NCBI GenBank assembly: GCA_937892395.1
Contig: CALAGJ010000111.1
Coordinates: 2,039 to 66,038 of the forward strand
Direction of reading: 5' to 3'
From: an uncultured Parafilimonas sp.
GTDB lineage: Bacteria; Bacteroidota; Bacteroidia; Chitinophagales; Chitinophagaceae
Length of the DNA: 64,000 nt
Part shown: positions 1 to 9,360 of the stretch, one piece after another
Layout of the letters: every line of letters starts with the position of its first letter
Numbering within the stretch: the first letter of the stretch is position 1
The notes under the pieces: generated by a model
Told to the model about the DNA's origin: nothing
Databases searched by the model: none
The model's input: only the letters and a program-made list of their open reading frames with translations
Program-made: the position numbers and the translations under genes

Positions 1-1
1 A

Positions 2-241
2 TTTCAATTTGATACTGATATAGATGTCAGAAGATGGTATAGCGGATATATTTCAGTTAAGCAATCTATAACTACAAAGAATGATATGCCAAAAGGTATC
101 TATGATATGTACCTTTTTCTACCTGATAAATATGCTTCTATCAGTAATAGAGTGGAGTATGCTATAAGGCTGGCAAATGATAATGTATGGGATAATGCAA
201 CAGGTTATAATAAGTTAAATTTTAGTATAACAGTTGAGTAA
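2..241 (+). CDS. partial CDS (5' end outside window): C-terminal fragment of a DUF4832-like / glycoside-hydrolase-like protein
   Basis: Frame is open from position 2 to TAA at 239-241. It is absent from the ORF track because it has no start codon. Translation ends ...YDMYLFLPDKYASISNRVEYAIRLANDNVWDNATGYNKLNFSITVE*. The AIRLAN..VW...TGYN.L tail matches my recollection of DUF4832 C-termini; this is recollection only. Confidence 0.35.
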   Translation, partial: FQFDTDIDVRRWYSGYISVKQSITTKNDMPKGIYDMYLFLPDKYASISNRVEYAIRLANDNVWDNATGYNKLNFSITVE

Positions 242-259
242 GGTTATTAAAAAAAGTAG

Positions 260-1171
260 TCAGTTATTATAAAAACTTTCTACATCTTTTTTATAAAACA
301 TACCAATATCAAATCTCATACAATTGGCTGCTCCACATGCTGCACCCATTTTTGCAATATCGTTGTATGAAAATTTTCTTGCCGATGCGGTTACAATGCC
401 TGCCAACAGTGCATCTCCACAACCTACTGTACTAATTACTTCATCTACTTTGTACACAGCATGTGCTACTTGTTTTGCATCATAAAGATATAAACCCTCT
501 TTTCCCGCAGTTAATGCAAGTTGTGTTGTAAACTGTAAAAAGAATTCTTCTATCTGCAAGCCTGTAGGGCAAATATCTTTTGCTTCTTGCTGATTGATAT
601 GAATACCAAATGGATGATGGGAAAGTGCTTGCTGCAGGGCTTCTCCAGCACAATCAATCCATACGGGTATATTATTTTTATTGGCCGCATCTATAAATAT
701 TCCATTAGGATCTATATTGGCTCCTGGAGGCCATGACCCACTTACAACTATATGTGATGCTTTGGATAAATAGGTAGTATATGTGTCAAAAAATTGCTTG
801 TATATTTCATTATTTATTTGAGGTCCATTTTCCAAAAATTCAGTGTGTAATATAGATTCGTTTTTACTCAATACTGCAATGCAATTTCTATTGTCTTCTG
901 CTATATAGACACCATCACAATATACATTCTTCTGTTCACATGCTGCTCTTGCCCATTTGCCTGTACTACCGCCCCAAATGCCCAGTAGTGTTACATTTTC
1001 ACCAAGCTCAGCAATATTTATTGCTACATGTACTCCCTTGCCTCCAGGAAATTTGTGTTGCTGTTTTATTCTATTCAAGTCTCCAAATTTGATGGTGTCC
1101 ATTTCCCAATAAATATCGACGGACGGATTAGGGCAAACTACAAGTATCATACTAAAATGGGATTGCTTCAA
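260..1171 (-). CDS. PfkB-family hexose-phosphate kinase (1-phosphofructokinase / tagatose-6-phosphate kinase, LacC/FruK-like)
   Basis: 303-aa ORF. Has N-terminal VCPNPSVD, GGKGVHVA, and C-terminal GCGDALLAG, all typical of the LacC/FruK branch of PfkB kinases. Overlaps the upstream ORF by 20 nt, suggesting an operon. Confidence 0.85.
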   Translation of the reverse strand: MKQSHFSMILVVCPNPSVDIYWEMDTIKFGDLNRIKQQHKFPGGKGVHVAINIAELGENVTLLGIWGGSTGKWARAACEQKNVYCDGVYIAEDNRNCIAVLSKNESILHTEFLENGPQINNEIYKQFFDTYTTYLSKASHIVVSGSWPPGANIDPNGIFIDAANKNNIPVWIDCAGEALQQALSHHPFGIHINQQEAKDICPTGLQIEEFFLQFTTQLALTAGKEGLYLYDAKQVAHAVYKVDEVISTVGCGDALLAGIVTASARKFSYNDIAKMGAACGAANCMRFDIGMFYKKDVESFYNN

Positions 1172-3209
1172 GCAATAAAAATTGATTGAAAGAGACAGGT
1201 ATTGAGGAATGATTTACATCTACTATTCCAAGCTCTTGGTTATTGTAGTAGTCAACTACTCTGTATTTTTTTTGTTTGTCTAAACCAAGTAGATTCACTT
1301 TGCTGTTGTATGAATTTGCATAAAAAGAATAATATAACGTATCTGCTTTTTTTAAGCAATGTGCTTCGGGAAAATCATATCCTATATCATATAAATTACC
1401 TAAATAGTTTGCTTTGCTGAGTTGCTTTTCATTATATATCTGTATCCATTTTTTAAAATAGATTTCTTTTTCGGGTGAAAGAAAATTTTCATCCTTACTA
1501 CTTATACCTGTTGCCGGCCAAACGAATTTCGTACCCGGCACTGCCCCAATGCCTACTTGCGATGCGAAGTCTTGCTTATTGTCTGTAAGCTCCACATGAT
1601 CTCCAAAGTAAGCTGTGGCAGGCATTATAGCTTTATAAACTTTTCCTTTTAATCTTACTTGCCAGCTACTTAAAGGATCACTGGCTACAAACTGATTAGT
1701 ATATGGCATATGATAAAAACTCATACAATCCCCACAGGGGCAAAATTCTACAACTGCATTAGGTTTTATGCTTCTTGCCGTTTCAAATATTGTTTTGAAT
1801 ATCATCGGCATTTGCTCAAAACTTTGTTCAGGGTTTGTTATATTGTGATTCTCTTGATAGTCAGGGGCACATGCATTCATGTGCTGGCCATCTAATTTTA
1901 ATGCATCAAATCCCCAGTCTTCTAAAAATAATTTTACAGCATCTTTTGTTGCTTTTATAGTTCCTGCATAAGTAGGTGCCATCATGTATGCATCCCACCA
2001 GGTAATATATTGCGGTGCTCCATCAGCTTGAATCAATAATAGATTAGCATCATCTTTCAAAATTTTACTGTTAGGATCTGCAGCCAATGGAGCCCACCAT
2101 AACACAGCTTTTAAGCCATGTGCATGTATGCTGTCTACAAATTTTTTCATGTCTGCATCACCATTTTCAAACCTGTTTTTATTGGCATGCCAGTCCCCCT
2201 CGGCTTCTTGATATCCATCATCTAATCCCACCCATTTTATTCCTAATTCTTTCACCTTTGGAAGCGTGTTTAAAATCTCTTGGATGGTAAAATTTCTTTC
2301 ATAACCCCATGCACACCATATTGGCTCAAATGCCTGTGGTTCTTGGGCCGGAGCTACTATCCCTTTGGTTTGCATATAATTTGAAAACATAGAAAGTGTT
2401 TGAAAACAGTCTTTTGTGTGTACAGAAATAAATGTTTCAATACTACTCAATGTATCTCCGCGTTCAAAGGCCATAGCCTCAGGGTATTCATATTCAATAT
2501 GCATATCTGCTTTGCTGCTATTTTCATCAAAATCCACTGGTAGAGAAACGAGTTTGGCTACAGTTTCTGTATGCCCAATTGCAATGCCGGCATCTTTTCT
2601 CCATAAATCAATAACTGGTATGCCACCTCCATAATCAACAGCATTCATACCCATAAAATTTTCCTGATAAAACCCCACATTTACTTTTTGTATCCAGTCT
2701 GCTCTATCTGCATTTGAGCTTCCCTGAAAGCTCCAGAATTTTGTAGTGTCAGTAGAAGGAATGATGGAATATTTGTGATTGATCCATTTATGTATCTGAA
2801 TATTTTTTGATCCCAAATTAATATAATGCGACTTAAAAAAAGCAGTATTTGGAAATTGATTGTAGGTAGTAATTTGCAATATTTTTTCAAGATTATGTAC
2901 TTTATCTATCCCAAAAATTAAATACTGCAATCCTTTCCCCGATTGCGTTTCAATCGGCCGAATGATTTTTTTTGTAAATGTAAAATCTGTTGCATCATAA
3001 TATTTTGTTTGCAATATCTCTGAAGCACTGAAATCACTCATCAGCTTTTTGGAGAAAGGAAATTCTGCATCAATTTTTGTGTGCAGTGCTGCATCTATTG
3101 TAATATATAAATGCTCATTATGAATACTCACTGTTTGTGCAGCTATGGGAAATGAAATACAAATCAGAATGCCTCCAATGATTGAATTTTTTTTTATTGT
3201 ATGTAACAT
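1152..3209 (-). CDS. exported clan GH-D glycoside hydrolase (alpha-galactosidase / alpha-N-acetylgalactosaminidase-like, GH36/GH27-type core)
   Basis: 685-aa ORF with signal peptide MLHTIKKNSIIGGILICISFPIAAQ. Core motifs WCAWGYE, VGLDDGYQ and ALKLDGQ resemble the DDGW and K-x-D nucleophile regions of melibiase-type (beta/alpha)8 enzymes. The family assignment within the clan is uncertain. Confidence 0.7.
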   Translation of the reverse strand: MLHTIKKNSIIGGILICISFPIAAQTVSIHNEHLYITIDAALHTKIDAEFPFSKKLMSDFSASEILQTKYYDATDFTFTKKIIRPIETQSGKGLQYLIFGIDKVHNLEKILQITTYNQFPNTAFFKSHYINLGSKNIQIHKWINHKYSIIPSTDTTKFWSFQGSSNADRADWIQKVNVGFYQENFMGMNAVDYGGGIPVIDLWRKDAGIAIGHTETVAKLVSLPVDFDENSSKADMHIEYEYPEAMAFERGDTLSSIETFISVHTKDCFQTLSMFSNYMQTKGIVAPAQEPQAFEPIWCAWGYERNFTIQEILNTLPKVKELGIKWVGLDDGYQEAEGDWHANKNRFENGDADMKKFVDSIHAHGLKAVLWWAPLAADPNSKILKDDANLLLIQADGAPQYITWWDAYMMAPTYAGTIKATKDAVKLFLEDWGFDALKLDGQHMNACAPDYQENHNITNPEQSFEQMPMIFKTIFETARSIKPNAVVEFCPCGDCMSFYHMPYTNQFVASDPLSSWQVRLKGKVYKAIMPATAYFGDHVELTDNKQDFASQVGIGAVPGTKFVWPATGISSKDENFLSPEKEIYFKKWIQIYNEKQLSKANYLGNLYDIGYDFPEAHCLKKADTLYYSFYANSYNSKVNLLGLDKQKKYRVVDYYNNQELGIVDVNHSSIPVSFNQFLLLEAIPF

Positions 3210-3212
3210 AGT

Positions 3213-4289
3213 CTATTGGTGTAAAATTTTCATAGCATTAGTTTGATAGAGCTTTTGCAATATTTCTTTAGACAAATCAAGTCCATACAAAGGCCAATGA
3301 TAATTGAATAAATCTATTTCGTAAAAATGCTCATCTGCGGATTCAAGTATTCTATATGTGATGTTATACATAGATGCATCTGTACCCATGTCTGTACCAT
3401 ATAATAATTTGTCTTGGTACTTCGTAATGAAGGCAGCAGTATATCGGGGTACAGGAGCTATTTCTGCAAATCTTGCAGCAATATCTGCATACAGGTTTGG
3501 ATACTTATCCAGTAAATTACCAATCATACTAAGGTTACTACAGCAGTTGGCTAAATGACATGCTATGAAAATTGTTTCGGGGTTTTCCTTGACTGCATTT
3601 TCTAAAGTTGCCACTAATGCATCATGATTTAGTTTGTTTGGCAGGTATAGATTGACATGCCATTGTGCAGCATTCATCAAACCATCATTTGTAGAATCAG
3701 GTGCATTATACATCCATTCATCTTCTGCCACATGTATGCTTATGGGCATGTGTAGTTGGGCACATTTTTGAAGAATTGGTTTCATTTTAATATCATCAAT
3801 ATGCACGCCGATGCCAGGCGTAGGCATTGCATATTCATCACCAATACCTTTATCCCCTATCTCACCAACGCCCCTCGCACCTTTTAAATAGCATCGCTCT
3901 AATTCTTTAAGCGCATTTAGTTCCCAACCCTCTTTCTCAAATCCGGTATAATCAAAGCCACACCATAGTTCAAACCTGTCTAAATGATTTTTATACTTTG
4001 TTACAATTGTGTCAAAACTTTTCCCGGTAGCACCTGTTAGCAAAATTGTTTTTTTTATTCCTGCTACATCCATAGTATGAATCCATTCCTCAATATCTGC
4101 CTGTGTTGCTGCATAGTTATGACTATGTATATCAATTACAGGAAAAGCAGCTTTTGTTATATGAGCGGATGGTATATGATAAATAGAAACGGGTCTATAG
4201 TTTTTTAATTCTATATCAGTAGTAGGCTGACTATATGCACTACTATTTATCAAAAATACCATGCTGATATAGGGATAGATTTTTTTCAT
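3213..4289 (-). CDS. exported metal-dependent amidohydrolase (TIM-barrel, Amidohydro_2-like)
   Basis: 358-aa ORF. Has an N-terminal hydrophobic signal (MKKIYPYISMVFLINSSAYSQ), an HxH metal motif (VIDIHSH), and later ISIHVAED and YGTDMG. Only 4 nt separate it from the downstream gene, and it overlaps the upstream one by 4 nt. Confidence 0.7.
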   Translation of the reverse strand: MKKIYPYISMVFLINSSAYSQPTTDIELKNYRPVSIYHIPSAHITKAAFPVIDIHSHNYAATQADIEEWIHTMDVAGIKKTILLTGATGKSFDTIVTKYKNHLDRFELWCGFDYTGFEKEGWELNALKELERCYLKGARGVGEIGDKGIGDEYAMPTPGIGVHIDDIKMKPILQKCAQLHMPISIHVAEDEWMYNAPDSTNDGLMNAAQWHVNLYLPNKLNHDALVATLENAVKENPETIFIACHLANCCSNLSMIGNLLDKYPNLYADIAARFAEIAPVPRYTAAFITKYQDKLLYGTDMGTDASMYNITYRILESADEHFYEIDLFNYHWPLYGLDLSKEILQKLYQTNAMKILHQ

Positions 4290-5101
4290 CCGTTGATTGT
4301 ATTTAATTTTTTTGAAATGAGTTGTACAACATCATCAATTGCTTTAGGGAATATTTTTCGGAGGTCAATTTCATCTGTATTAGCCAGTAGCTGCTGTAGT
4401 TTTTTCATAAATGTATTTTTTGTTTCTGTGGCTAAATTAATTTTATTTATGCCTGCTTTAATAGCTGCCTTTAGCTGCTCATCAGGTATACCGCTACTGC
4501 CATGTAAGACCAAAGCACAGTTGGTCACAGCCCTTATCTCTTTGAGCCTATCTAATCTAATTTTTGGTATTTGTTTGTAAAAGCCATGTGCATTTCCAAT
4601 GGCTATGGCCAGTGCATCTACACCTGTTTCATTTACAAAATATGCTGCATCTGTTGCATTGGTTGGCTCAGCTTCTTGTTCTTGGCCAAGTTTTGCTATA
4701 TACCCTAATTCTGCTTCTACACTTGCATTGTAAGCTTCAGCCAATTTCACTACTTCTTTTGTAATTTGTATATTTTCTTTTAAGGGTTTTTCGCTTGCAT
4801 CTATCATTACACTGTCAAAGCCTGCATCTAAGCATTTTTTTACTAAAGTTATATTGCTTCCATGATCTAAATGAATCCATCCTTGTACATCATACTCATT
4901 TAGCATAACCCTTGCCATTGACACAGCAGGAGCTATGGATAAATACTCTAAAGAACTTTCACTCAATTGCAAAATAATACTACTATCAGTAGCTTTTGCT
5001 GCCAGCACTAATCCCTTCAGTGTTTCGAAATTATAAAAGTTTGCAGCCAGCAAAGCTGTACAATTTCTAGTACAATTTGCTAATTTGTTTTTCATATTCA
5101 T
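4286..5101 (-). CDS. class II ketose-bisphosphate aldolase (tagatose-1,6-bisphosphate aldolase, KbaY/GatY-like)
   Basis: Motifs HLDHG, GNAHG and LVLHGSSGIP are diagnostic of class II FBP/TBP aldolases. The ORF-track start at 5131 is a TTG. The first ATG codons are at 5101 and 5095. Confidence 0.85.
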   Translation of the reverse strand: MNMKNKLANCTRNCTALLAANFYNFETLKGLVLAAKATDSSIILQLSESSLEYLSIAPAVSMARVMLNEYDVQGWIHLDHGSNITLVKKCLDAGFDSVMIDASEKPLKENIQITKEVVKLAEAYNASVEAELGYIAKLGQEQEAEPTNATDAAYFVNETGVDALAIAIGNAHGFYKQIPKIRLDRLKEIRAVTNCALVLHGSSGIPDEQLKAAIKAGINKINLATETKNTFMKKLQQLLANTDEIDLRKIFPKAIDDVVQLISKKLNTING

Positions 5102-6050
5102 TGATATCAAATTTAAATTTTTGCAATGCAATTCTCTTCACAGTATCTATATCTGCAAATGCAGTGGTGCCGCCTCTTTTAGTGGTATTAATTGCTCCGC
5201 AAAGCGCTGCAAATTCTGCACAGCGGTGTACCGTTTCATCCTTTAAATATTGATGAATAAAGCCTGCATCAAAACTATCTCCGGCACCTATGGCATCAGC
5301 TACCTTATGATTGGTGAAAGCGGGTTGTAGAAATAAGTTATTTGATGTAACAATAGTAGCTCCGTCTGCGCCATTTTTTACTACCAATACAGTGCAATAC
5401 TCTTTTATAGATGCAATGGCATCTTTCATAGTTGACTGGTTTGTAATATTTTTTAGTTCTTCATAATTGGGTAAAAAAATGTCAACATACTTTAAGAGGT
5501 CTTTCCAATTGCAGTCCCATTTTTCTGCGGGATCCCATTGCGGATCGAGTGATGTAGTGAGGCCCTGTTTTTTTGCTCTTTGAAACAATTGTACCAATCC
5601 TTTTTTTAATTCAGATTGTAAAAAAATAGAACTTACGTGCAGGTGGGTAGCAGAGCTGAGCATTTCATCAGTTACATCCTTTTCCCTGAGCTCGTTCATG
5701 GCACCAGGGTAAGTTATCATGGCACGATCGTTATTAAAATTAAAGGCAACGCTAATTCCCGTAGCCGCAGTATTGCTTCGTTTAATAAAATTTACATCAA
5801 CACCTTTCAAAGTAAGATCTGCCAATATTTTATTGGCAAAACTGTCTTTACCTATCTTGCCACAAAAACAAACAGATGTACCCAATACACTGAGATTGCT
5901 GGCAAAAATTGCCGAACTACTTCCCAAAGTAAAAGTCATTTTATCTGCAATAATTTCTTTGCCAATTTGAGGAAGCCTTTCAATTTGATCTAATATTAAA
6001 TCTACATTTAGTTCACCCACTACTAATACATCAAATTTTTTATTAGTCAT
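5067..6050 (-). CDS. PfkB-family sugar kinase (ribokinase/fructokinase-like)
   Basis: Has N-terminal FDVLVVGELNVDL and C-terminal DAIGAGDSFDAGF, the PfkB signature 2. The ATG at 6050 gives the canonical MTNKKFDVLVVG start. An upstream ATG at 6092 is also possible. Confidence 0.85.
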   Translation of the reverse strand: MTNKKFDVLVVGELNVDLILDQIERLPQIGKEIIADKMTFTLGSSSAIFASNLSVLGTSVCFCGKIGKDSFANKILADLTLKGVDVNFIKRSNTAATGISVAFNFNNDRAMITYPGAMNELREKDVTDEMLSSATHLHVSSIFLQSELKKGLVQLFQRAKKQGLTTSLDPQWDPAEKWDCNWKDLLKYVDIFLPNYEELKNITNQSTMKDAIASIKEYCTVLVVKNGADGATIVTSNNLFLQPAFTNHKVADAIGAGDSFDAGFIHQYLKDETVHRCAEFAALCGAINTTKRGGTTAFADIDTVKRIALQKFKFDINEYEKQISKLY

Positions 6051-6151
6051 TATTCTAATTTTATTTTTATACTTTTTAAGTGTATTACACATTCAGAAAA
6101 CTCTGATATAGATTTATACAATGGTTTAAAGGGTTGTTACTGCTGTCAATT

Positions 6152-7312
6152 TTATACTTCAACAGAGTAAATTTTTACACCTTGCACAACTCTGGAAATT
6201 GCACCACTTACCGATGGTGCATCTGGCATAAGACCAATCTGAAGGCTCTTATAAAAACCTAATATTTGAGCAGGTATTATACTGCACAATGGTAAAAAAT
6301 CTTCAGCAATCATATATTCTCCCGGGAAATTTATTTGTGTATCAGTATCAATATTTTCAACTTTATTTTCAGCTACGCCAATCTGAAACATAACTGCATT
6401 ACCCTTTTTCATGGCATGTACTAAATCTGTTTCATATTGTCGAATATGTTCATCATTAATAAAAAAATATACAACAAGTGTGGTGTCATCTATGACAGAT
6501 TTGGGCCCATGTCTAAAACCAAGATAGGTGTCTGATTTGCATATAATTTGGCCATCTGTAAGTTCTTGTAATTTCAGTGCGGCTTCTGTGGCAGTACCAA
6601 ATAAGGCCCCGGATCCAAGAAATACTGCTCTTTGAAAATGTTTCTCAGCTATATCTTTTAATTCAGTAGTTTGTGTAGTAATAATTTGACTTGATGCATT
6701 TGCTACCCGCATTAATTGCTGAGTACAAAATTCCTTTTGTTCTCTATATGCTATCAATAACCCTGTCAATAGCATAGATGTGTAACTTCCTGTCATTGCC
6801 AAGCTCTTATCATTTGTATCCATAGGTAAGTTGATGACATGTATTGGGTTTTTTGATGTATAGTTTGATAGTGCCCCATCTTTATTACAAGTGATGATTA
6901 GATGAAAACATTTTTTAGTAAAGGAATCGGCCAAATCTAATGCGGCACAACTTTCGGGGCTATTTCCGCTTCTTGCAAAGGAGATGATCAATGGTGTTTG
7001 ATGTGCATTTAAATAGTTGTGCGGATGCGATACAAGGTCTGTTGTAGATATTGCATTGGATATTATTCCTGTATTTCTAAAAAAAGCACCCTGAAGAGAT
7101 AGGCCAATAAAAGCACTTGTGCCGGCACCTGTAAGTATAATTTGATTGGACTGAGCTAAAGCCGTTTTCAAAAAAGTATTGATCTCAGTATTTTCTTCAT
7201 AAAATTTTTTTGCAGTTTGATTCCAGATATCAGGTTGCCCCTCAATTTCTTTTGCTGTAAAGAGGGCACCTTTTTCTCTTAGCTCATCCTCAGTAAACTG
7301 TAGATATTTCAT
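6152..7312 (-). CDS. agaS: SIS-domain galactosamine-6-phosphate deaminase/isomerase AgaS
   Basis: 386 aa, collinear with E. coli AgaS as I recall it. Shared motifs: ILTGAGTSAFIG, LISFARSGNSPES, ITCN..GAL, GFRHGPKS..DD.TLVV, and PDAPSVSGAISRVVQGV at the C-terminus. Confidence 0.85.
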   Translation of the reverse strand: MKYLQFTEDELREKGALFTAKEIEGQPDIWNQTAKKFYEENTEINTFLKTALAQSNQIILTGAGTSAFIGLSLQGAFFRNTGIISNAISTTDLVSHPHNYLNAHQTPLIISFARSGNSPESCAALDLADSFTKKCFHLIITCNKDGALSNYTSKNPIHVINLPMDTNDKSLAMTGSYTSMLLTGLLIAYREQKEFCTQQLMRVANASSQIITTQTTELKDIAEKHFQRAVFLGSGALFGTATEAALKLQELTDGQIICKSDTYLGFRHGPKSVIDDTTLVVYFFINDEHIRQYETDLVHAMKKGNAVMFQIGVAENKVENIDTDTQINFPGEYMIAEDFLPLCSIIPAQILGFYKSLQIGLMPDAPSVSGAISRVVQGVKIYSVEV

Positions 7313-7329
7313 ATCAAAAAATTATGCTA

Positions 7330-7337
7330 CAAAGCTA
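7330..7337 (-). promoter_or_regulatory. candidate Bacteroidota -7 box (TAGCTTTG) for the aga-like operon
   Basis: CAAAGCTA on the + strand reads TAGCTTTG on the - strand. It lies 17 nt upstream of the agaS ATG and matches the TAnnTTTG consensus. Confidence 0.35.
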
Positions 7338-7452
7338 AGGAAATATTTTTATAACTTTCAATATCTTACGAATAAATTTCATAAACTTATTTTTATATTA
7401 TTAATAATTTCTAATATTGCTACTATTATTTATTTAAAAAAAATTATTCACA

Positions 7453-9312
7453 ATGAAAAAAATGAGCACATCTTCTGCAAGATTGTTGGTTCTTTTGGGA
7501 GTAGTTACACTACTATCTACACAGTGTTTTGCTACAACTTACTATGTAAATGCGGTCACTGGAAATGATGCAAATGCTGGTGTTTCTGCGGCATCTCCAT
7601 TACTAACAGTGCAAAAAGGATTGGACAAAGCAACTGCTGCTGGTGATATTATTTTAGTATCTCCGGGTACTTACAAACAAAATTTGGTTTGGAAATATTC
7701 TGGTACGGCTACACAAAAAATTACACTTCAAAAAAATGGAGTAGGTACTGTATTTTTAAAATCTGCTGATGCATCTACAAGTCCTGTTATACAAATCACA
7801 AATTTTAGTAATATCATTATTGATGGTTTTACTATAACAAGAGATAATGTAAAAAATAATGCACAAGGTATTTTAGTCAATTCTTCCGGAACAGTGTCAA
7901 TGCAAAACATTGAAATTAGGAATTGTACATTTACTGCTATAAGCTGGAGTACAAACCCAAATGTAAAGCCTACCACAAGCCAAAATGCGCAGCCATTAAT
8001 TGTATATGGAAGATCAAGCCAGCCAATTCAAAATATAAACGTACACCATTGTGATTTTAATAATAACATTACAGGGCAAAGCGAAGTGTGTTCTTTTAAC
8101 TCAAATATTAATGGCTTCTCAGCTACCAACAATACCCTGCACGACAATACAAATATTGCGATTGACGTTATTGGCTATGAAGGTGAAAATAGTAACGTAA
8201 ATTTAGACCAGGCATATAATGGTATTATTGCTAATAATGTACTTTATGTAAATCAGAGCCCTTACGCAGAGGGGGCAAGTATTTATGTGGACGGAGGCAG
8301 AGCAATATTGATTGAAAACAATTTAATCAGAGATGGTGATTATGGAATAGAAATCAGTGCAGAAAATGATAAATCTACTATTGCATTTGAAACACAGGAT
8401 ATAACAGTAAGAAATAATTTAATCTATAACTGTAGAAGTGTAGGATTAAAAATCGGTAACTATAAAGGCAAATTACAAAATGCATTGGTCTGCGGAAATA
8501 CTTGCTTTTACAACAATAGAGGTGGGCGTAGAGATGGTGATGTAAATGGCACAAGTGCCAATGTAGGTGCTTGGGCAGAATTAGTTATTGACAATATGCA
8601 GGATGTAAAAATTAATAGCAATATTTTTTATGCAAGGGCTTCAAATACTGCAATGATTAATTCAGATGGTAACGCTTTAATCACAAATCTTACTATGAAT
8701 TATAATTTATGGAATAATAAAAACAATACAGCTGGCACTGCTTTAACTTTTCAGTATAAAATTAATGGTACCAATTATAATTACAACTCATACTCAACCT
8801 ATAAAACCAATAATACACTGAACTTTGATAAGCAGTCAAAATATGGAAATCCATCATTTGTATATGAAGGTATTTCAGGAAGTAATACGATTAATCCGGA
8901 CCTGCATATTCAGTCAGGATCTATAGCTATATCAGGGGGAGATCCCGCTGCAATAATAGGTACCAGCAGGGGCCAGTGGGGCAGCACAGATTACTTTGGA
9001 AATAACAGAAAAACTGGCATACTGGATATGGGTGCACACGAATTGATAACAGGAAGTTTTCCAGCAAAAAATAATATGCTGCTACCCCTACAAGTCTATC
9101 CAAACCCTGCGCAAAAGCAGGTGTATATAATTGGAATACCAGATGGCTTATTGCAAATAAAGATTATTGATGAACATGGATCTGTAGTGCAAACTGCATC
9201 TGCATCTACAGCCAAAACACCAATTGATATAAGCCAATTAAAAAGTAAATACTACTGGCTAAGTTTTAGTGTGCATGATCAAGCATATACAATCAAATTC
9301 TTTAAGCTGTAA
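7453..9312 (+). CDS. secreted right-handed parallel beta-helix protein (DUF1565/pectate-lyase-fold) with T9SS type-A C-terminal sorting domain
   Basis: Has a signal peptide. The N-terminus TYYVNAVTGNDANAG...PLLTVQKGLD...GDIILVSPGTYK is typical of DUF1565 beta-helix proteins. Contains many N-rich beta-helix turns. The C-terminus VYPNPAQKQVYI...KFFKL is a Por/T9SS CTD. Confidence 0.75.
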   Translation: MKKMSTSSARLLVLLGVVTLLSTQCFATTYYVNAVTGNDANAGVSAASPLLTVQKGLDKATAAGDIILVSPGTYKQNLVWKYSGTATQKITLQKNGVGTVFLKSADASTSPVIQITNFSNIIIDGFTITRDNVKNNAQGILVNSSGTVSMQNIEIRNCTFTAISWSTNPNVKPTTSQNAQPLIVYGRSSQPIQNINVHHCDFNNNITGQSEVCSFNSNINGFSATNNTLHDNTNIAIDVIGYEGENSNVNLDQAYNGIIANNVLYVNQSPYAEGASIYVDGGRAILIENNLIRDGDYGIEISAENDKSTIAFETQDITVRNNLIYNCRSVGLKIGNYKGKLQNALVCGNTCFYNNRGGRRDGDVNGTSANVGAWAELVIDNMQDVKINSNIFYARASNTAMINSDGNALITNLTMNYNLWNNKNNTAGTALTFQYKINGTNYNYNSYSTYKTNNTLNFDKQSKYGNPSFVYEGISGSNTINPDLHIQSGSIAISGGDPAAIIGTSRGQWGSTDYFGNNRKTGILDMGAHELITGSFPAKNNMLLPLQVYPNPAQKQVYIIGIPDGLLQIKIIDEHGSVVQTASASTAKTPIDISQLKSKYYWLSFSVHDQAYTIKFFKL

Positions 9313-9327
9313 ATATGGGTATTAAAT

Positions 9328-9360
9328 AAAGAAACCCGCCACGGCGGGTCTCTTTATTTT
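9328..9360. terminator. bidirectional rho-independent terminator
   Basis: Hairpin AAAGAAACCCGCC / GGCGGGTCTCTTT with 13-nt arms and one mismatch, flanked by A/T runs. It lies between convergent genes ending at 9312(+) and 9416(-). Confidence 0.75.

What the first reader, a model, noticed from the sequence alone, without database searches (positions are those of the whole stretch)
260..9312. Non-PTS AgaS / tagatose-bisphosphate operon with exported glycosidase and exported amidohydrolase but no cytoplasmic deacetylase: variant GalN/GalNAc route, possibly a polygalactosamine-degrading locus
Six genes are packed with overlaps or gaps of 60 nt or less on the - strand. In order they encode AgaS (6152-7312), a PfkB sugar kinase, a class II tagatose-bisphosphate-type aldolase, a signal-peptide amidohydrolase, a signal-peptide clan GH-D glycosidase and a LacC/FruK-type kinase. 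AgaS, the LacC-like kinase and the aldolase form the known lower GalN-6-P -> tagatose-6-P -> tagatose-1,6-P2 -> triose-P pathway. The described proteobacterial and Firmicute versions use a PTS or AgaK plus a cytoplasmic AgaA/NagA deacetylase. Here there is no PTS and no NagA-like gene. Instead there is a second PfkB kinase, which could be a GalN or GalNAc kinase, and an exported amidohydrolase, which might deacetylate outside the cytoplasm. Divergent from the operon is a T9SS-secreted beta-helix protein, a fold typical of polysaccharide lyases and hydrolases. A DUF4832-like GH-like fragment lies at the window edge. Together these are compatible with attack on an alpha-linked GalNAc/GalN-rich polymer, but the substrate is entirely inferred. 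No transporter or regulator is visible in the window.
Basis: partly seen in the sequence, partly recalled or inferred. Interest (0 to 1): 0.6.

Follow-up and report, generated by a model that had tools for sequence, protein, structure and literature searches.

The report
Galactosamine-polymer utilization locus in Bacteroidota
This gene cluster is half of a larger nutrient-harvesting locus by which a soil or freshwater Bacteroidota bacterium probably digests a galactosamine-rich polysaccharide and burns the released galactosamine by an undescribed, non-PTS version of the AgaS/tagatose pathway.

Summary
Six co-directional genes at 260-7312 encode AgaS, two PfkB kinases, a class II ketose-bisphosphate aldolase, an exported amidohydrolase and an exported GH36 enzyme.

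- The GH36's only close solved relative is FpGalNase, the alpha-galactosaminidase of Flavonifractor plautii (E 4e-67). Its active-site residues are conserved.
- The missing transporter and regulator lie just outside the window. On the adjoining contig sit an AgaR-equivalog repressor, an EamA permease, SusC/SusD and a PKD lipoprotein, followed by a DUF4874/DUF4832 glycosidase-like lipoprotein. The whole is a polysaccharide utilization locus (PUL).
- The genome (99.6% complete) showed no NagA/AgaA and no mannose-type PTS.
- In 401 sampled Bacteroidota genomes, all 11 with a full-length GH36 of this type also have AgaS. AgaS is nearly always next to the ribokinase-like kinase.
- F. plautii keeps FpGalNase in an analogous non-PTS kinase/SIS/tagatose operon.

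Still inferred:
- The polymer. Pel, fungal galactosaminogalactan or polygalactosamine are suggested only by published work on a DUF4832 hydrolase.
- The kinase substrates.
- The amidohydrolase as de-N-acetylase. This is the weakest point: most family members are stand-alone genes elsewhere.

Verdict: a new variant of known kinds, and testable in Parafilimonas terrae DSM 28286. My one look-up of earlier scan notes, limited to this window's neighbourhood, showed none on this locus.

The parts
1..241 (+). 3' end of the gene for a 511-aa DUF4874+DUF4832 lipoprotein, the candidate surface endo-glycosidase. The gene starts 1295 nt upstream of the window, at C111:744.
   Evidence: PF16116 E 4e-55 and PF16173 E 5e-41. 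N-terminal lipobox Cys. Conserved in the locus in G001, G003 and Parafilimonas terrae.
260..1150 (-). Kinase 1, a LacC/FruK/1-PFK-type PfkB kinase and candidate tagatose-6-phosphate kinase. It is an accessory gene.
   Evidence: TIGR03168 at 199 bits, just under its cut-off of 216; lacC models far below their cut-offs. Present only in G000, G001 and G014, and absent from the 15 other large cluster loci.
1152..3209 (-). Exported GH36 enzyme of the FpGalNase subfamily, the candidate exo-alpha-galactosaminidase.
   Evidence: PDB 8x1b/9awt E 4e-67, against 1e-5 or weaker for classical GH36 alpha-galactosidases such as 2xn0 and 1zy9. W301, D330, D331, W371, K438-x-D440, C492 and D511 are invariant in 13 orthologs. 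Signal peptide with Gln25 at +1.
3213..4289 (-). Exported metal-dependent amidohydrolase (Amidohydro_2). Hypothetical GalNAc-oligosaccharide de-N-acetylase; function not established.
   Evidence: PF04909 at 51 bits. Invariant H55, H57, E143, K147, H186 and D300; H245 is conserved in at least 90% of sequences. AF2 pLDDT 82; structural matches only at superfamily level. A separate clade of in-cluster copies.
4286..5101 (-). Class II ketose-bisphosphate aldolase, the candidate tagatose-1,6-bisphosphate aldolase.
   Evidence: PF01116 E 3e-81. TIGR00167 at 226.6 bits, above its cut-off of 215.6.
5067..6050 (-). Kinase 2, a ribokinase-like PfkB kinase and a core partner of AgaS. Candidate galactosamine 6-kinase.
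   Evidence: PF00294 E 2e-50. Nearest solved structure is E. coli YdjH at only 9e-26. Co-occurs with AgaS in 20 of the 21 genomes that have each gene; 17 pairs lie on one contig at about 3.7 kb or less.
6152..7312 (-). AgaS-type galactosamine-6-phosphate deaminase/isomerase.
   Evidence: TIGR02815 E 2e-112 over positions 2-371 of 372. PDB 3odp, 3c3j and 3i0z at E 1e-82 to 1e-68.
7355..7380 (-). Candidate AgaR operator: three direct pentamers (GAAAT, GTAAG, GAAAG) spaced 11 and 10 nt apart.
   Evidence: Phylogenetic footprint: most of 18 orthologous agaS upstream regions carry GAAAG-N5/6-GAAAG at this position. Not specific within this genome alone: 74 comparable hits.
7330..7337 (-). Bacteroidota-type -7 promoter box (TAGCTTTG), ending 17 nt upstream of the agaS ATG.
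   Evidence: Read from the sequence. A TTTG element is conserved at this place in most orthologous regions.
7453..9312 (+). Divergently transcribed right-handed beta-helix protein secreted by the type IX system. An accessory carbohydrate-active-like enzyme of unknown specificity.
   Evidence: PF18962 at 34.5 bits. AF2 pLDDT 89. Foldseek: GH136, PL6, PL9 and GH28 at TM 0.3-0.55. Atlas clusters of Pel9A-like/DUF1565 type. Next to the operon in only 6 of the loci examined.
9334..9349 (+). Terminator-like hairpin after the beta-helix gene.
   Evidence: The number of such sites in the region is no more than chance gives.

Best explanation
The window holds the catabolic half of a Sus-type polysaccharide utilization locus for an alpha-linked, galactosamine-rich glycan. 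The most likely substrate is a cationic alpha-1,4-GalN/GalNAc exopolysaccharide such as bacterial Pel, fungal galactosaminogalactan or polygalactosamine.

Proposed course (only sequence and context are shown; every biochemical step is inferred):
1. A surface lipoprotein of the DUF4874/DUF4832 family cuts the polymer. In some genera the secreted beta-helix enzyme may also take part.
2. The PKD lipoprotein and SusD bind the fragments, and SusC imports them.
3. In the periplasm the GH36 enzyme removes alpha-GalN residues, as FpGalNase does. The neighbouring amidohydrolase may first strip acetyl groups.
4. Free GalN crosses the inner membrane, probably through the EamA permease.
5. The ribokinase-like kinase makes GalN-6-phosphate.
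6. AgaS turns it into tagatose-6-phosphate and ammonia.
7. The LacC-like kinase, or a housekeeping phosphofructokinase in genomes that lack it, adds the second phosphate.
8. The class II aldolase yields triose phosphates.

An AgaR-type DeoR repressor bound to GAAAG direct repeats would control the operon.
For: - GH36: phmmer E 4e-67 to FpGalNase, against 1e-5 or weaker for classical GH36 alpha-galactosidases. Active-site residues named in PMC11762096 are invariant in 13 Bacteroidota orthologs.
- AgaS.
- AgaR equivalog above its cut-off (284.6 against 260), EamA, SusC (685 against 368) and SusD on contig C23, which abuts the window's contig.
- The same 11-gene locus occurs in Parafilimonas terrae DSM 28286.
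- No NagA/AgaA hit above 23 bits and no EIID-AGA in a genome that is 99.6% complete.
- Phylum sample of 401 genomes: all 11 with a full-length GH36 of this type have AgaS, against 10 of the other 390 (Fisher p 4e-16; the genomes are not phylogenetically independent). Kinase 2 and AgaS co-occur in 20 genomes, and 17 of the pairs lie on one contig at about 3.7 kb or less.
- F. plautii places the proven FpGalNAcDeAc and FpGalNase inside a kinase / SIS deaminase / GPH symporter / AgaZ / GatY operon.
- A DUF4832 protein encoded in a streptococcal pel operon disperses Pel-dependent aggregates (PMC12345266). DUF4832 genes accompany Gram-positive pel operons (10.1101/768473).
- AgaS without AgaA is the accepted signature of GalN-only use (PMC5583593).
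- An operator is conserved upstream of agaS.
Against: - No enzyme here has been assayed.
- Identity to FpGalNase is only 28%, and the position equivalent to Y464 differs.
- AgaS, the LacC-like kinase and the GatY/KbaY-specific models all score below their NCBIfam curated cut-offs.
- Kinase 2 has no characterised close relative, so it could be the tagatose-6-phosphate kinase instead.
- The amidohydrolase family is mostly a stand-alone gene among housekeeping genes, in genomes that lack the GH36.
- The link from DUF4832 to Pel rests on two papers and a shared Pfam family. I could not reproduce it: none of 5 DUF4832-bearing genomes tested in the phylum of F. plautii has PelG.
- The beta-helix fold resembles lyases of acidic polysaccharides as much as hydrolases.
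Confidence: 0.7

Rival explanations
1. A plain alpha-galactoside or tagatose locus. The GH36 would release galactose (or the kinases would act on tagatose or galactitol derivatives), and the SIS protein would be a sugar-phosphate isomerase with no amino sugar involved.
For: The Pfam hit is to Melibiase. Kinase 2 gives a weak match to tagatose kinase, 99 bits against a cut-off of 420. The solved AgaS-like structures were deposited as 'tagatose-6-phosphate ketose/aldose isomerase'.
Against: - Classical alpha-galactosidases match the GH36 at only 1e-5 or weaker, against 4e-67 for the galactosaminidase.
- The regulator passes the AgaR equivalog cut-off.
- The GH36 and AgaS co-occur strictly in the phylum sample.
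- F. plautii couples the proven galactosaminidase to the same type of pathway.
Confidence: 0.07
2. A standard GalNAc route for host-type or mucin-type glycans. GalNAc would be taken up and phosphorylated, then deacetylated in the cytoplasm by an enzyme encoded elsewhere or of an unrecognised family.
For: The AgaR/AgaS/aldolase core is shared with GalNAc regulons. The first known use of FpGalNase is on blood-group A antigen (PMC11762096).
Against: - No NagA/AgaA family hit over its cut-off anywhere in the genome.
- No homolog of FpGalNAcDeAc.
- The carriers are Chitinophagaceae and related genomes, many of them environmental metagenome assemblies.
- The characterised GalNAc route of Bacteroides uses an unrelated APH-type 1-kinase (PMC11992087).
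Confidence: 0.08
3. The locus recycles or remodels the cell's own galactosamine-containing surface polymer rather than foraging on foreign polysaccharide.
For: The known GH114, GH135 and GH166 enzymes and the streptococcal DUF4832 enzyme belong to biosynthetic systems (PMC12054363; PMC12345266). An old report describes a polygalactosamine coat on a Flavobacterium (title list).
Against: A SusC/SusD pair, a repressor and a complete catabolic pathway are the hallmarks of nutrient acquisition. No synthase genes lie in the locus.
Confidence: 0.08
4. The amidohydrolase is a conserved periplasmic enzyme with an unrelated job that merely came to lie inside the operon. In that case the locus handles only residues that are already deacetylated.
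For: Of 48 loci of 15 kb or more, 33 carry the gene alone, with no conserved neighbours, beside RNase R, polyprenyl synthase or GroEL. The 5 such genomes tested lack the GH36. Structure matches give only the superfamily.
Against: - In-cluster copies form their own clade (SH-aLRT 100).
- They always sit between the aldolase and GH36 genes.
- That is the position the proven deacetylase holds next to FpGalNase.
Confidence: 0.4

Closest known systems
aga/gam regulon of Escherichia coli and other Proteobacteria (AgaR, AgaS, AgaA, PTS, AgaZ/KbaY)
   Same: DeoR-type AgaR repressor, AgaS deaminase/isomerase, and tagatose-6-phosphate to tagatose-1,6-bisphosphate to triose phosphates by a class II aldolase. 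AgaS without AgaA is read as GalN-only use (PMC5583593, PMC12118421).
   Different: No PTS, no AgaA/NagA and no AgaZ. Uptake is by SusC/SusD plus a presumed EamA permease. Phosphorylation is by a ribokinase-like PfkB kinase. Glycosidases are built into the locus.
Shewanella non-PTS GalNAc pathway (outer-membrane receptor, AgaP permease, AgaK kinase, AgaA-II, AgaS), as summarised in PMC12118421
   Same: Non-PTS design: a TonB-dependent outer-membrane transporter, a permease and a cytoplasmic kinase feed AgaS.
   Different: That pathway takes GalNAc and needs a cytoplasmic deacetylase, and its kinase belongs to another family. Here no deacetylase of that type exists, and the substrate is predicted to be free GalN.
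Flavonifractor plautii FpGalNAcDeAc / FpGalNase locus
   Same: A GH36 galactosaminidase of the same subfamily lies in one operon with a sugar kinase, a SIS-type deaminase, a secondary transporter and a tagatose-bisphosphate aldolase. A deacetylase-type gene sits directly upstream of the GH36.
   Different: The kinase (BadF/NagK-like), the transporter (GPH) and the deacetylase (the 6n1a fold with CBM32) are not homologous to the parts here. AgaZ is present. There is no SusC/SusD. Its known target is a host blood-group antigen, not a polymer.
Sus-like polysaccharide utilization loci of Bacteroidota
   Same: SusC/SusD pair, a surface glycan-binding lipoprotein, a surface glycosidase lipoprotein and periplasmic exo-enzymes.
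   Different: - I found no described PUL with a GH36 galactosaminidase or an AgaS pathway.
- Regulation is by a DeoR/AgaR repressor rather than the usual hybrid two-component or SusR/ECF systems.
- The cytoplasmic pathway is encoded inside the locus.
Endo-alpha-1,4-galactosaminidases GH114, GH135, GH166 and GH191, and the DUF4832 hydrolase SIR_1591 of the Streptococcus intermedius pel operon
   Same: They act on alpha-1,4-GalN/GalNAc polymers. The edge gene of this locus shares the DUF4832 family with SIR_1591.
   Different: Those enzymes serve biosynthesis or dispersal and are all endo-acting. Here the family member is a lipoprotein in a catabolic locus. Its direct homology to SIR_1591 was not tested.

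Membership tests
AgaS family (TIGR02815) | Full-length match to the family model, with AgaS-type proteins as closest relatives | tested here: met
   E 2e-112 over positions 2-371 of 372. PDB 3odp, 3c3j and 3i0z at E 1e-82 to 1e-68; the next families (GlmS/GlmD) at 1e-15.
AgaS family (TIGR02815) | Score above NCBIfam's curated cut-off | tested here: not met
   375.8 bits against a cut-off of 529.2. A divergent Bacteroidota branch.
AgaS family (TIGR02815) | GalN-6-phosphate deaminase/isomerase activity | not testable with these tools
   Needs an enzyme assay.
GH36, FpGalNase (alpha-galactosaminidase) subfamily | GH36 catalytic domain with the K-x-D nucleophile motif and the acid/base Asp | tested here: met
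   PF02065 at 48.6 bits against 27. K438-L-D440 and D511 invariant in 13 orthologs.
GH36, FpGalNase (alpha-galactosaminidase) subfamily | Residues shown by mutagenesis to matter in FpGalNase (D463, Y464, C513, D532) | tested here: inconclusive
   D463, C513 and D532 equivalents are conserved. The Y464 position is Gly in the K-x-D register, with a 2-residue insertion.
GH36, FpGalNase (alpha-galactosaminidase) subfamily | Much closer to FpGalNase than to alpha-galactosidases | tested here: met
   E 4e-67 against 1e-5 or weaker for classical GH36 alpha-galactosidases such as 2xn0 and 1zy9; other alpha-galactosidase entries reach 2e-10 and 3e-8. 28% identity over 643 aligned positions.
AgaR (DeoR-family repressor, NF040755) | Equivalog model above its cut-off; gene beside aga genes | tested here: met
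   284.6 bits against 260. Adjacent to agaS in 13 of 15 large cluster loci.
Sus-like PUL | Adjacent SusC/RagA and SusD genes in the same locus as glycosidases | tested here: met
   TIGR04056 at 685 bits against 368, plus the SusC signature, for this genome's SusC. SusD Pfam domains were scored on the orthologs of G001 and G003; this genome's SusD is 84% identical to the G001 ortholog. One uninterrupted locus in G003 and Parafilimonas terrae. In this genome it is split by a contig break.
NagA/AgaA N-acetylhexosamine-6-phosphate deacetylase | A family member in the locus or in the genome | tested here: not met
   Best TIGR00221 hit 23 bits against a cut-off of 225.65, only over the first 64 positions, in a genome 99.6% complete.
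Mannose-type (Aga/Gam) PTS | EIID-AGA component in the genome | tested here: not met
   No PF03613 hit; the controls rang in E. coli, B. subtilis and L. lactis.
Tagatose-6-phosphate kinase LacC / 1-PFK subfamily (kinase 1) | Score above the curated cut-offs | tested here: not met
   TIGR03168 at 199.2 against 216.4; lacC TIGR01231 at 143.8 against 409.55. It resembles the subfamily but is not a certified member.
Class II ketose-bisphosphate aldolase | Subfamily model above its cut-off; tagatose-specific models | tested here: inconclusive
   TIGR00167 at 226.6 against 215.6 is met. The GatY (223.7 against 383) and KbaY (160 against 542) models are not met. Fructose versus tagatose specificity remains open.
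Amidohydrolase superfamily (Amidohydro_2, PF04909) | Pfam match, TIM barrel, and metal ligands at the strand ends | tested here: met
   51.4 bits against 26.4. H55/H57, E143/K147, H186 and D300 invariant, H245 conserved in at least 90%. VIA-align Z 22.5 to 3irs and 21.9 to 3cjp.
Carbohydrate de-N-acetylase (functional class) | Homology to a characterised sugar deacetylase | tested here: inconclusive
   No similarity to FpGalNAcDeAc. A carbohydrate deacetylase (9kb1) appears only at Z 16.9, among many unrelated superfamily members.
DUF4874/DUF4832 glycosidase-like family (Pel-dispersing SIR_1591) | Both Pfam domains present; direct homology to SIR_1591 | tested here: inconclusive
   PF16116 at 187 bits and PF16173 at 140 bits are met. 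The pel association was not reproduced in my sample.
Type IX secretion cargo | C-terminal sorting domain | tested here: met
   PF18962 at 34.5 bits against 27, residues 548-615.

The most novel reading that the evidence does not exclude
This would be the first dedicated catabolic system for cationic alpha-1,4-galactosamine exopolysaccharides (Pel, galactosaminogalactan, polygalactosamine). It would bring together four undescribed activities:
- a DUF4874/DUF4832 surface endo-galactosaminidase;
- a GH36 exo-alpha-galactosaminidase acting on polymers rather than on blood-group antigen;
- a periplasmic Amidohydro_2-type de-N-acetylase of GalNAc oligosaccharides;
- a PfkB galactosamine 6-kinase, which would be the first enzyme named for that reaction.
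Probability: 0.3. Interest if true: 0.78.

Novelty: new variant of a known kind. Interest (0 to 1): 0.62.

Why it matters
Pel and galactosaminogalactan hold together the biofilms of Pseudomonas aeruginosa, streptococci and Aspergillus. The enzymes known to cut them are all endo-acting helpers of biosynthesis. I found no description of an organism that eats these polymers, nor of the pathway by which it would.

A confirmed locus would give three things:
- a set of natural, complementary enzymes (endo, exo, possibly a de-N-acetylase) for taking such matrices apart and for analysing them;
- a missing step in amino-sugar metabolism, a kinase for free galactosamine;
- an account of how soil and freshwater Bacteroidota turn over a common class of microbial exopolysaccharide.

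It would also place the blood-group-converting FpGalNase in its metabolic context.

Tried and rejected
I studied neighbourhoods through the search for related loci and the genome search instead.
- I tried to reproduce the DUF4832-pel association. DUF4832 was found in 7 of 401 genomes of the phylum of F. plautii, and none of the 5 tested has PelG. That proves nothing either way, so the link rests on the two papers. No search in Streptococcus was possible because I had no handle for it.
- Foldseek and VIA-align on the amidohydrolase model gave only superfamily-level matches: decarboxylases, lactonases, TatD, PTE and dihydroorotase, at Z 17-22. No function can be read from them.
- Neighbour clustering around the 32 stand-alone amidohydrolase genes found no conserved partner.
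- Foldseek on the beta-helix model gave GH136, PL6, PL9 and GH28 at similar weak TM-scores. I assign no specificity.
- A scan of this genome for three GAAAG pentamers at 10-11 nt spacing gave 74 hits. The operator is therefore supported by conservation across genomes, not by rarity.
- The paper on the proteobacterial AgaR motif (Leyn et al. 2012) is not held. My recollection that DeoR-type AgaR binds CTTTC repeats is therefore unverified.
- The phrase 'galactosamine kinase' occurs in none of the papers held.
- Rejected: a fructosamine deglycase or GlmS-like reading of the SIS protein. Those models score 1e-26 or worse, against 2e-112 for AgaS.

Full report
**1. The observation**

The window is G000:C111:2039-66038, in a draft genome of 3.48 Mb and 206 contigs that is 99.6% complete. 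Their domains are:

| Coordinates | Protein | Main evidence |
|---|---|---|
| 260-1171 | PfkB kinase of the 1-PFK/LacC type | |
| 1152-3209 | Melibiase/GH36 | |
| 3213-4289 | Amidohydro_2 | |
| 4286-5131 | class II aldolase | |
| 5067-6092 | ribokinase-like PfkB kinase | |
| 6152-7312 | AgaS-type SIS protein | |

- Gaps and overlaps between the longest ORFs run from -65 to +59 nt. Likelier ATG starts at 1150, 5101 and 6050 keep the genes tightly packed.
- The GH36 and the amidohydrolase have signal peptides followed by Gln at +1. From my own knowledge, this is typical of signal-peptidase-I substrates in Bacteroidota.
- 7453-9312 (+) is a beta-helix protein with a type IX secretion tail.
- The fragment at the window edge is the end of a 511-aa DUF4874+DUF4832 lipoprotein gene.

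**2. What lies beyond the window**

The contig ends 2 kb upstream, inside a PKD-domain gene. Orthologs from a genome of the same genus (G001) showed that the missing piece sits at the end of contig C23. In order, C23 carries:
- an AgaR-equivalog DeoR repressor (NF040755, 284.6 bits against a cut-off of 260);
- an EamA permease;
- SusC (TIGR04056, 685 bits);
- SusD;
- the N-terminal half of the PKD lipoprotein.

The finding is therefore the catabolic half of a polysaccharide utilization locus (PUL).

In G003, everything from agaS through the DUF4874/4832 gene lies on one strand, with the AgaR and EamA genes just upstream. In Parafilimonas terrae DSM 28286 the same genes form one uninterrupted locus:

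DUF4874/4832 - PKD - SusD - SusC - EamA - AgaR - AgaS - kinase 2 - aldolase - amidohydrolase - GH36

The LacC-like kinase 1 occurs only in G000, G001 and G014. The beta-helix gene lies next to the operon in only six of the loci examined. Both are accessories.

**3. The glycosidase**

- Its only strong matches among solved structures are 8x1b and 9awt/9ayu, which are FpGalNase, the GH36 alpha-galactosaminidase of Flavonifractor plautii (E 4e-67). Classical GH36 alpha-galactosidases such as 2xn0 and 1zy9 score 1e-5 or weaker.
- Identity to FpGalNase is 28%.
- The residues named in the cryo-EM paper (PMC11762096) map as follows: W317, D346, D347, W387, K461, C513 and D532 are invariant in 13 Bacteroidota orthologs. 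The nucleophile is kept in a K-[LM]-D motif.
- The Y464 position differs.

**4. Genomic coupling**

I sampled 401 Bacteroidota genomes drawn evenly across the phylum.
- The GH36 subfamily occurs in 13 genomes, 11 of them with a full-length match.
- AgaS occurs in 21, and kinase 2 in 21.
- All 11 full-length GH36 genomes have AgaS, against 10 of the remaining 390 (Fisher p 4e-16). The genomes are related, so this overstates the significance.
- In 8 of the 9 more distant AgaS-bearing carriers checked, the GH36 and AgaS genes share a contig, 2-40 kb apart.
- Kinase 2 and AgaS co-occur in 20 genomes, and 17 of the pairs lie on one contig at about 3.7 kb or less. Kinase 2 is thus the constant partner of AgaS in this phylum.

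Ribokinase-type PfkB enzymes generally phosphorylate free sugars, while the 1-PFK/LacC type acts on sugar phosphates (my own knowledge). I therefore assign kinase 2 to GalN and kinase 1 to tagatose-6-phosphate. This is an inference: the nearest solved relative of kinase 2 is E. coli YdjH, at only 9e-26.

**5. An independent parallel**

I fetched the F. plautii locus through a back-translated FpGalNase peptide. On one strand it reads:

BadF/NagK-like kinase - SIS deaminase - FpGalNAcDeAc (identical to PDB 6n1a) - FpGalNase - GH4 - GPH symporter - AgaZ/GatZ - GatY-like aldolase

The proven galactosaminidase is thus embedded in a non-PTS kinase/deaminase/tagatose pathway built from mostly non-homologous parts. 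This supports the functional reading here. It also shows a deacetylase sitting directly upstream of the GH36, which is the place the amidohydrolase holds in the window.

**6. What is absent**

- No NagA/AgaA family member: the best TIGR00221 hit is 23 bits against a cut-off of 225.65.
- No EIID-AGA PTS component.
- No homolog of FpGalNAcDeAc.

AgaS without AgaA is the accepted signature of GalN-only utilisation (PMC5583593).

**7. The amidohydrolase**

The case for a specialised role:
- It has the ligand set of a metal-dependent amidohydrolase: H55, H57, E143/K147, H186 and D300 are invariant, and H245 is conserved in at least 90% of sequences.
- The AF2 model is confident (pLDDT 82).
- In-cluster copies form a distinct clade (SH-aLRT 100).
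- Cluster-bearing genomes have only that one close copy.

The case against:
- Structural searches give only the superfamily.
- The family is found in more than 587 species genomes.
- In 33 of 48 large loci it stands alone among housekeeping genes, and the 5 such genomes tested lack the GH36.

The de-N-acetylase idea is plausible from need and position, but I rate it at about even odds at best.

**8. The polymer**

- In the literature held, DUF4832 genes accompany Gram-positive pel operons (10.1101/768473).
- The DUF4832 protein SIR_1591 disperses Pel-dependent aggregates as PelA's hydrolase domain does (PMC12345266).
- Pel and fungal galactosaminogalactan are alpha-1,4-GalNAc/GalN polymers. 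The known hydrolases (GH114, GH135, GH166, GH191) are all endo-acting (PMC12054363).
- A lipoprotein of this family beside SusC/SusD, together with an exo-galactosaminidase and a GalN pathway, fits foraging on such polymers.
- I could not compare the protein with SIR_1591 directly or reproduce the pel link. The substrate therefore remains inferred.
- The beta-helix model (pLDDT 89) matches GH136, PL6, PL9 and GH28 about equally weakly.

**9. Regulation**

Upstream of agaS, most of 18 orthologous regions carry direct repeats GAAAG-N5/6-GAAAG, usually with a third degenerate unit. The repeats sit just 5' of a TAnnTTTG -7 box. In the window the repeats are at 7355-7380 and the box at 7330-7337. 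This is a candidate AgaR operator. It is not rare enough in this genome to stand without the cross-genome conservation.

**10. Comparison and novelty**

- The lower pathway and the repressor are those of the aga/gam regulon, and the outer layer is a standard PUL.
- New features are the combination of the two, the absence of a PTS and of AgaA, the GH36 galactosaminidase in a polymer-foraging context, the AgaS-linked PfkB kinase, and possibly the amidohydrolase and DUF4874/4832 activities.
- The characterised Bacteroides GalNAc route uses an unrelated 1-kinase (PMC11992087).
- A 2025 review lists only PTS routes and the Shewanella AgaP/AgaK route (PMC12118421).
- My searches found no PUL for galactosaminogalactan or Pel.

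I class the finding as a new variant of known kinds, with interest about 0.6.

Noticed in passing
window 7355-7380 and the orthologous agaS upstream regions in L017-L095: Direct GAAAG repeats spaced 10-11 nt apart are conserved immediately upstream of the -7 promoter box of agaS in most of 18 genomes. This is a candidate operator of the Bacteroidota AgaR.
   Followed up: partly
L118 (Flavonifractor plautii, G047:C181:6000-25999): The two blood-group-A-converting enzymes FpGalNAcDeAc and FpGalNase lie in one operon with a BadF-type kinase, a SIS deaminase, a GH4 enzyme, a GPH symporter, AgaZ and a GatY-like aldolase. That amounts to a complete non-PTS galactosamine pathway.
   Followed up: partly
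window 3213-4289 and loci L021-L100: The exported Amidohydro_2 protein belongs to a highly conserved family (about 60% identity across families) found in more than 587 species genomes. It mostly stands alone among housekeeping genes, and its function is unknown.
   Followed up: partly
L002:744-2279 (upstream of the window): In the ESM Atlas, one structurally similar DUF4832/DUF4874 cluster (173 members) is labelled 54% viral (Uroviricota). This hints at phage depolymerases in the family.
   Followed up: no
L101:2-433 (contig C23 end) and L002:1-648 (contig C111 start): The PKD-domain lipoprotein gene is split across two contig ends, and the two pieces together are longer than the G001 ortholog. 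Repeated PKD modules probably broke the assembly.
   Followed up: partly
G003:C40:14104-15048 and G615:C2:358605-359726: The kinase 2 ortholog in G003 has one in-frame TGA, and the AgaS ortholog in G615 has one in-frame TAG. These may be decaying copies or sequencing errors.
   Followed up: no
L101:7164-7925 (contig C23): A small 253-aa protein with a type IX secretion tail and no other recognisable domain lies next to the AgaR gene.
   Followed up: no
L033 (uncultured Chitinophagaceae): A reduced variant of the locus reads AgaR - AgaS - amidohydrolase - GH36 - EamA, with no detected kinase 2 or aldolase.
   Followed up: no
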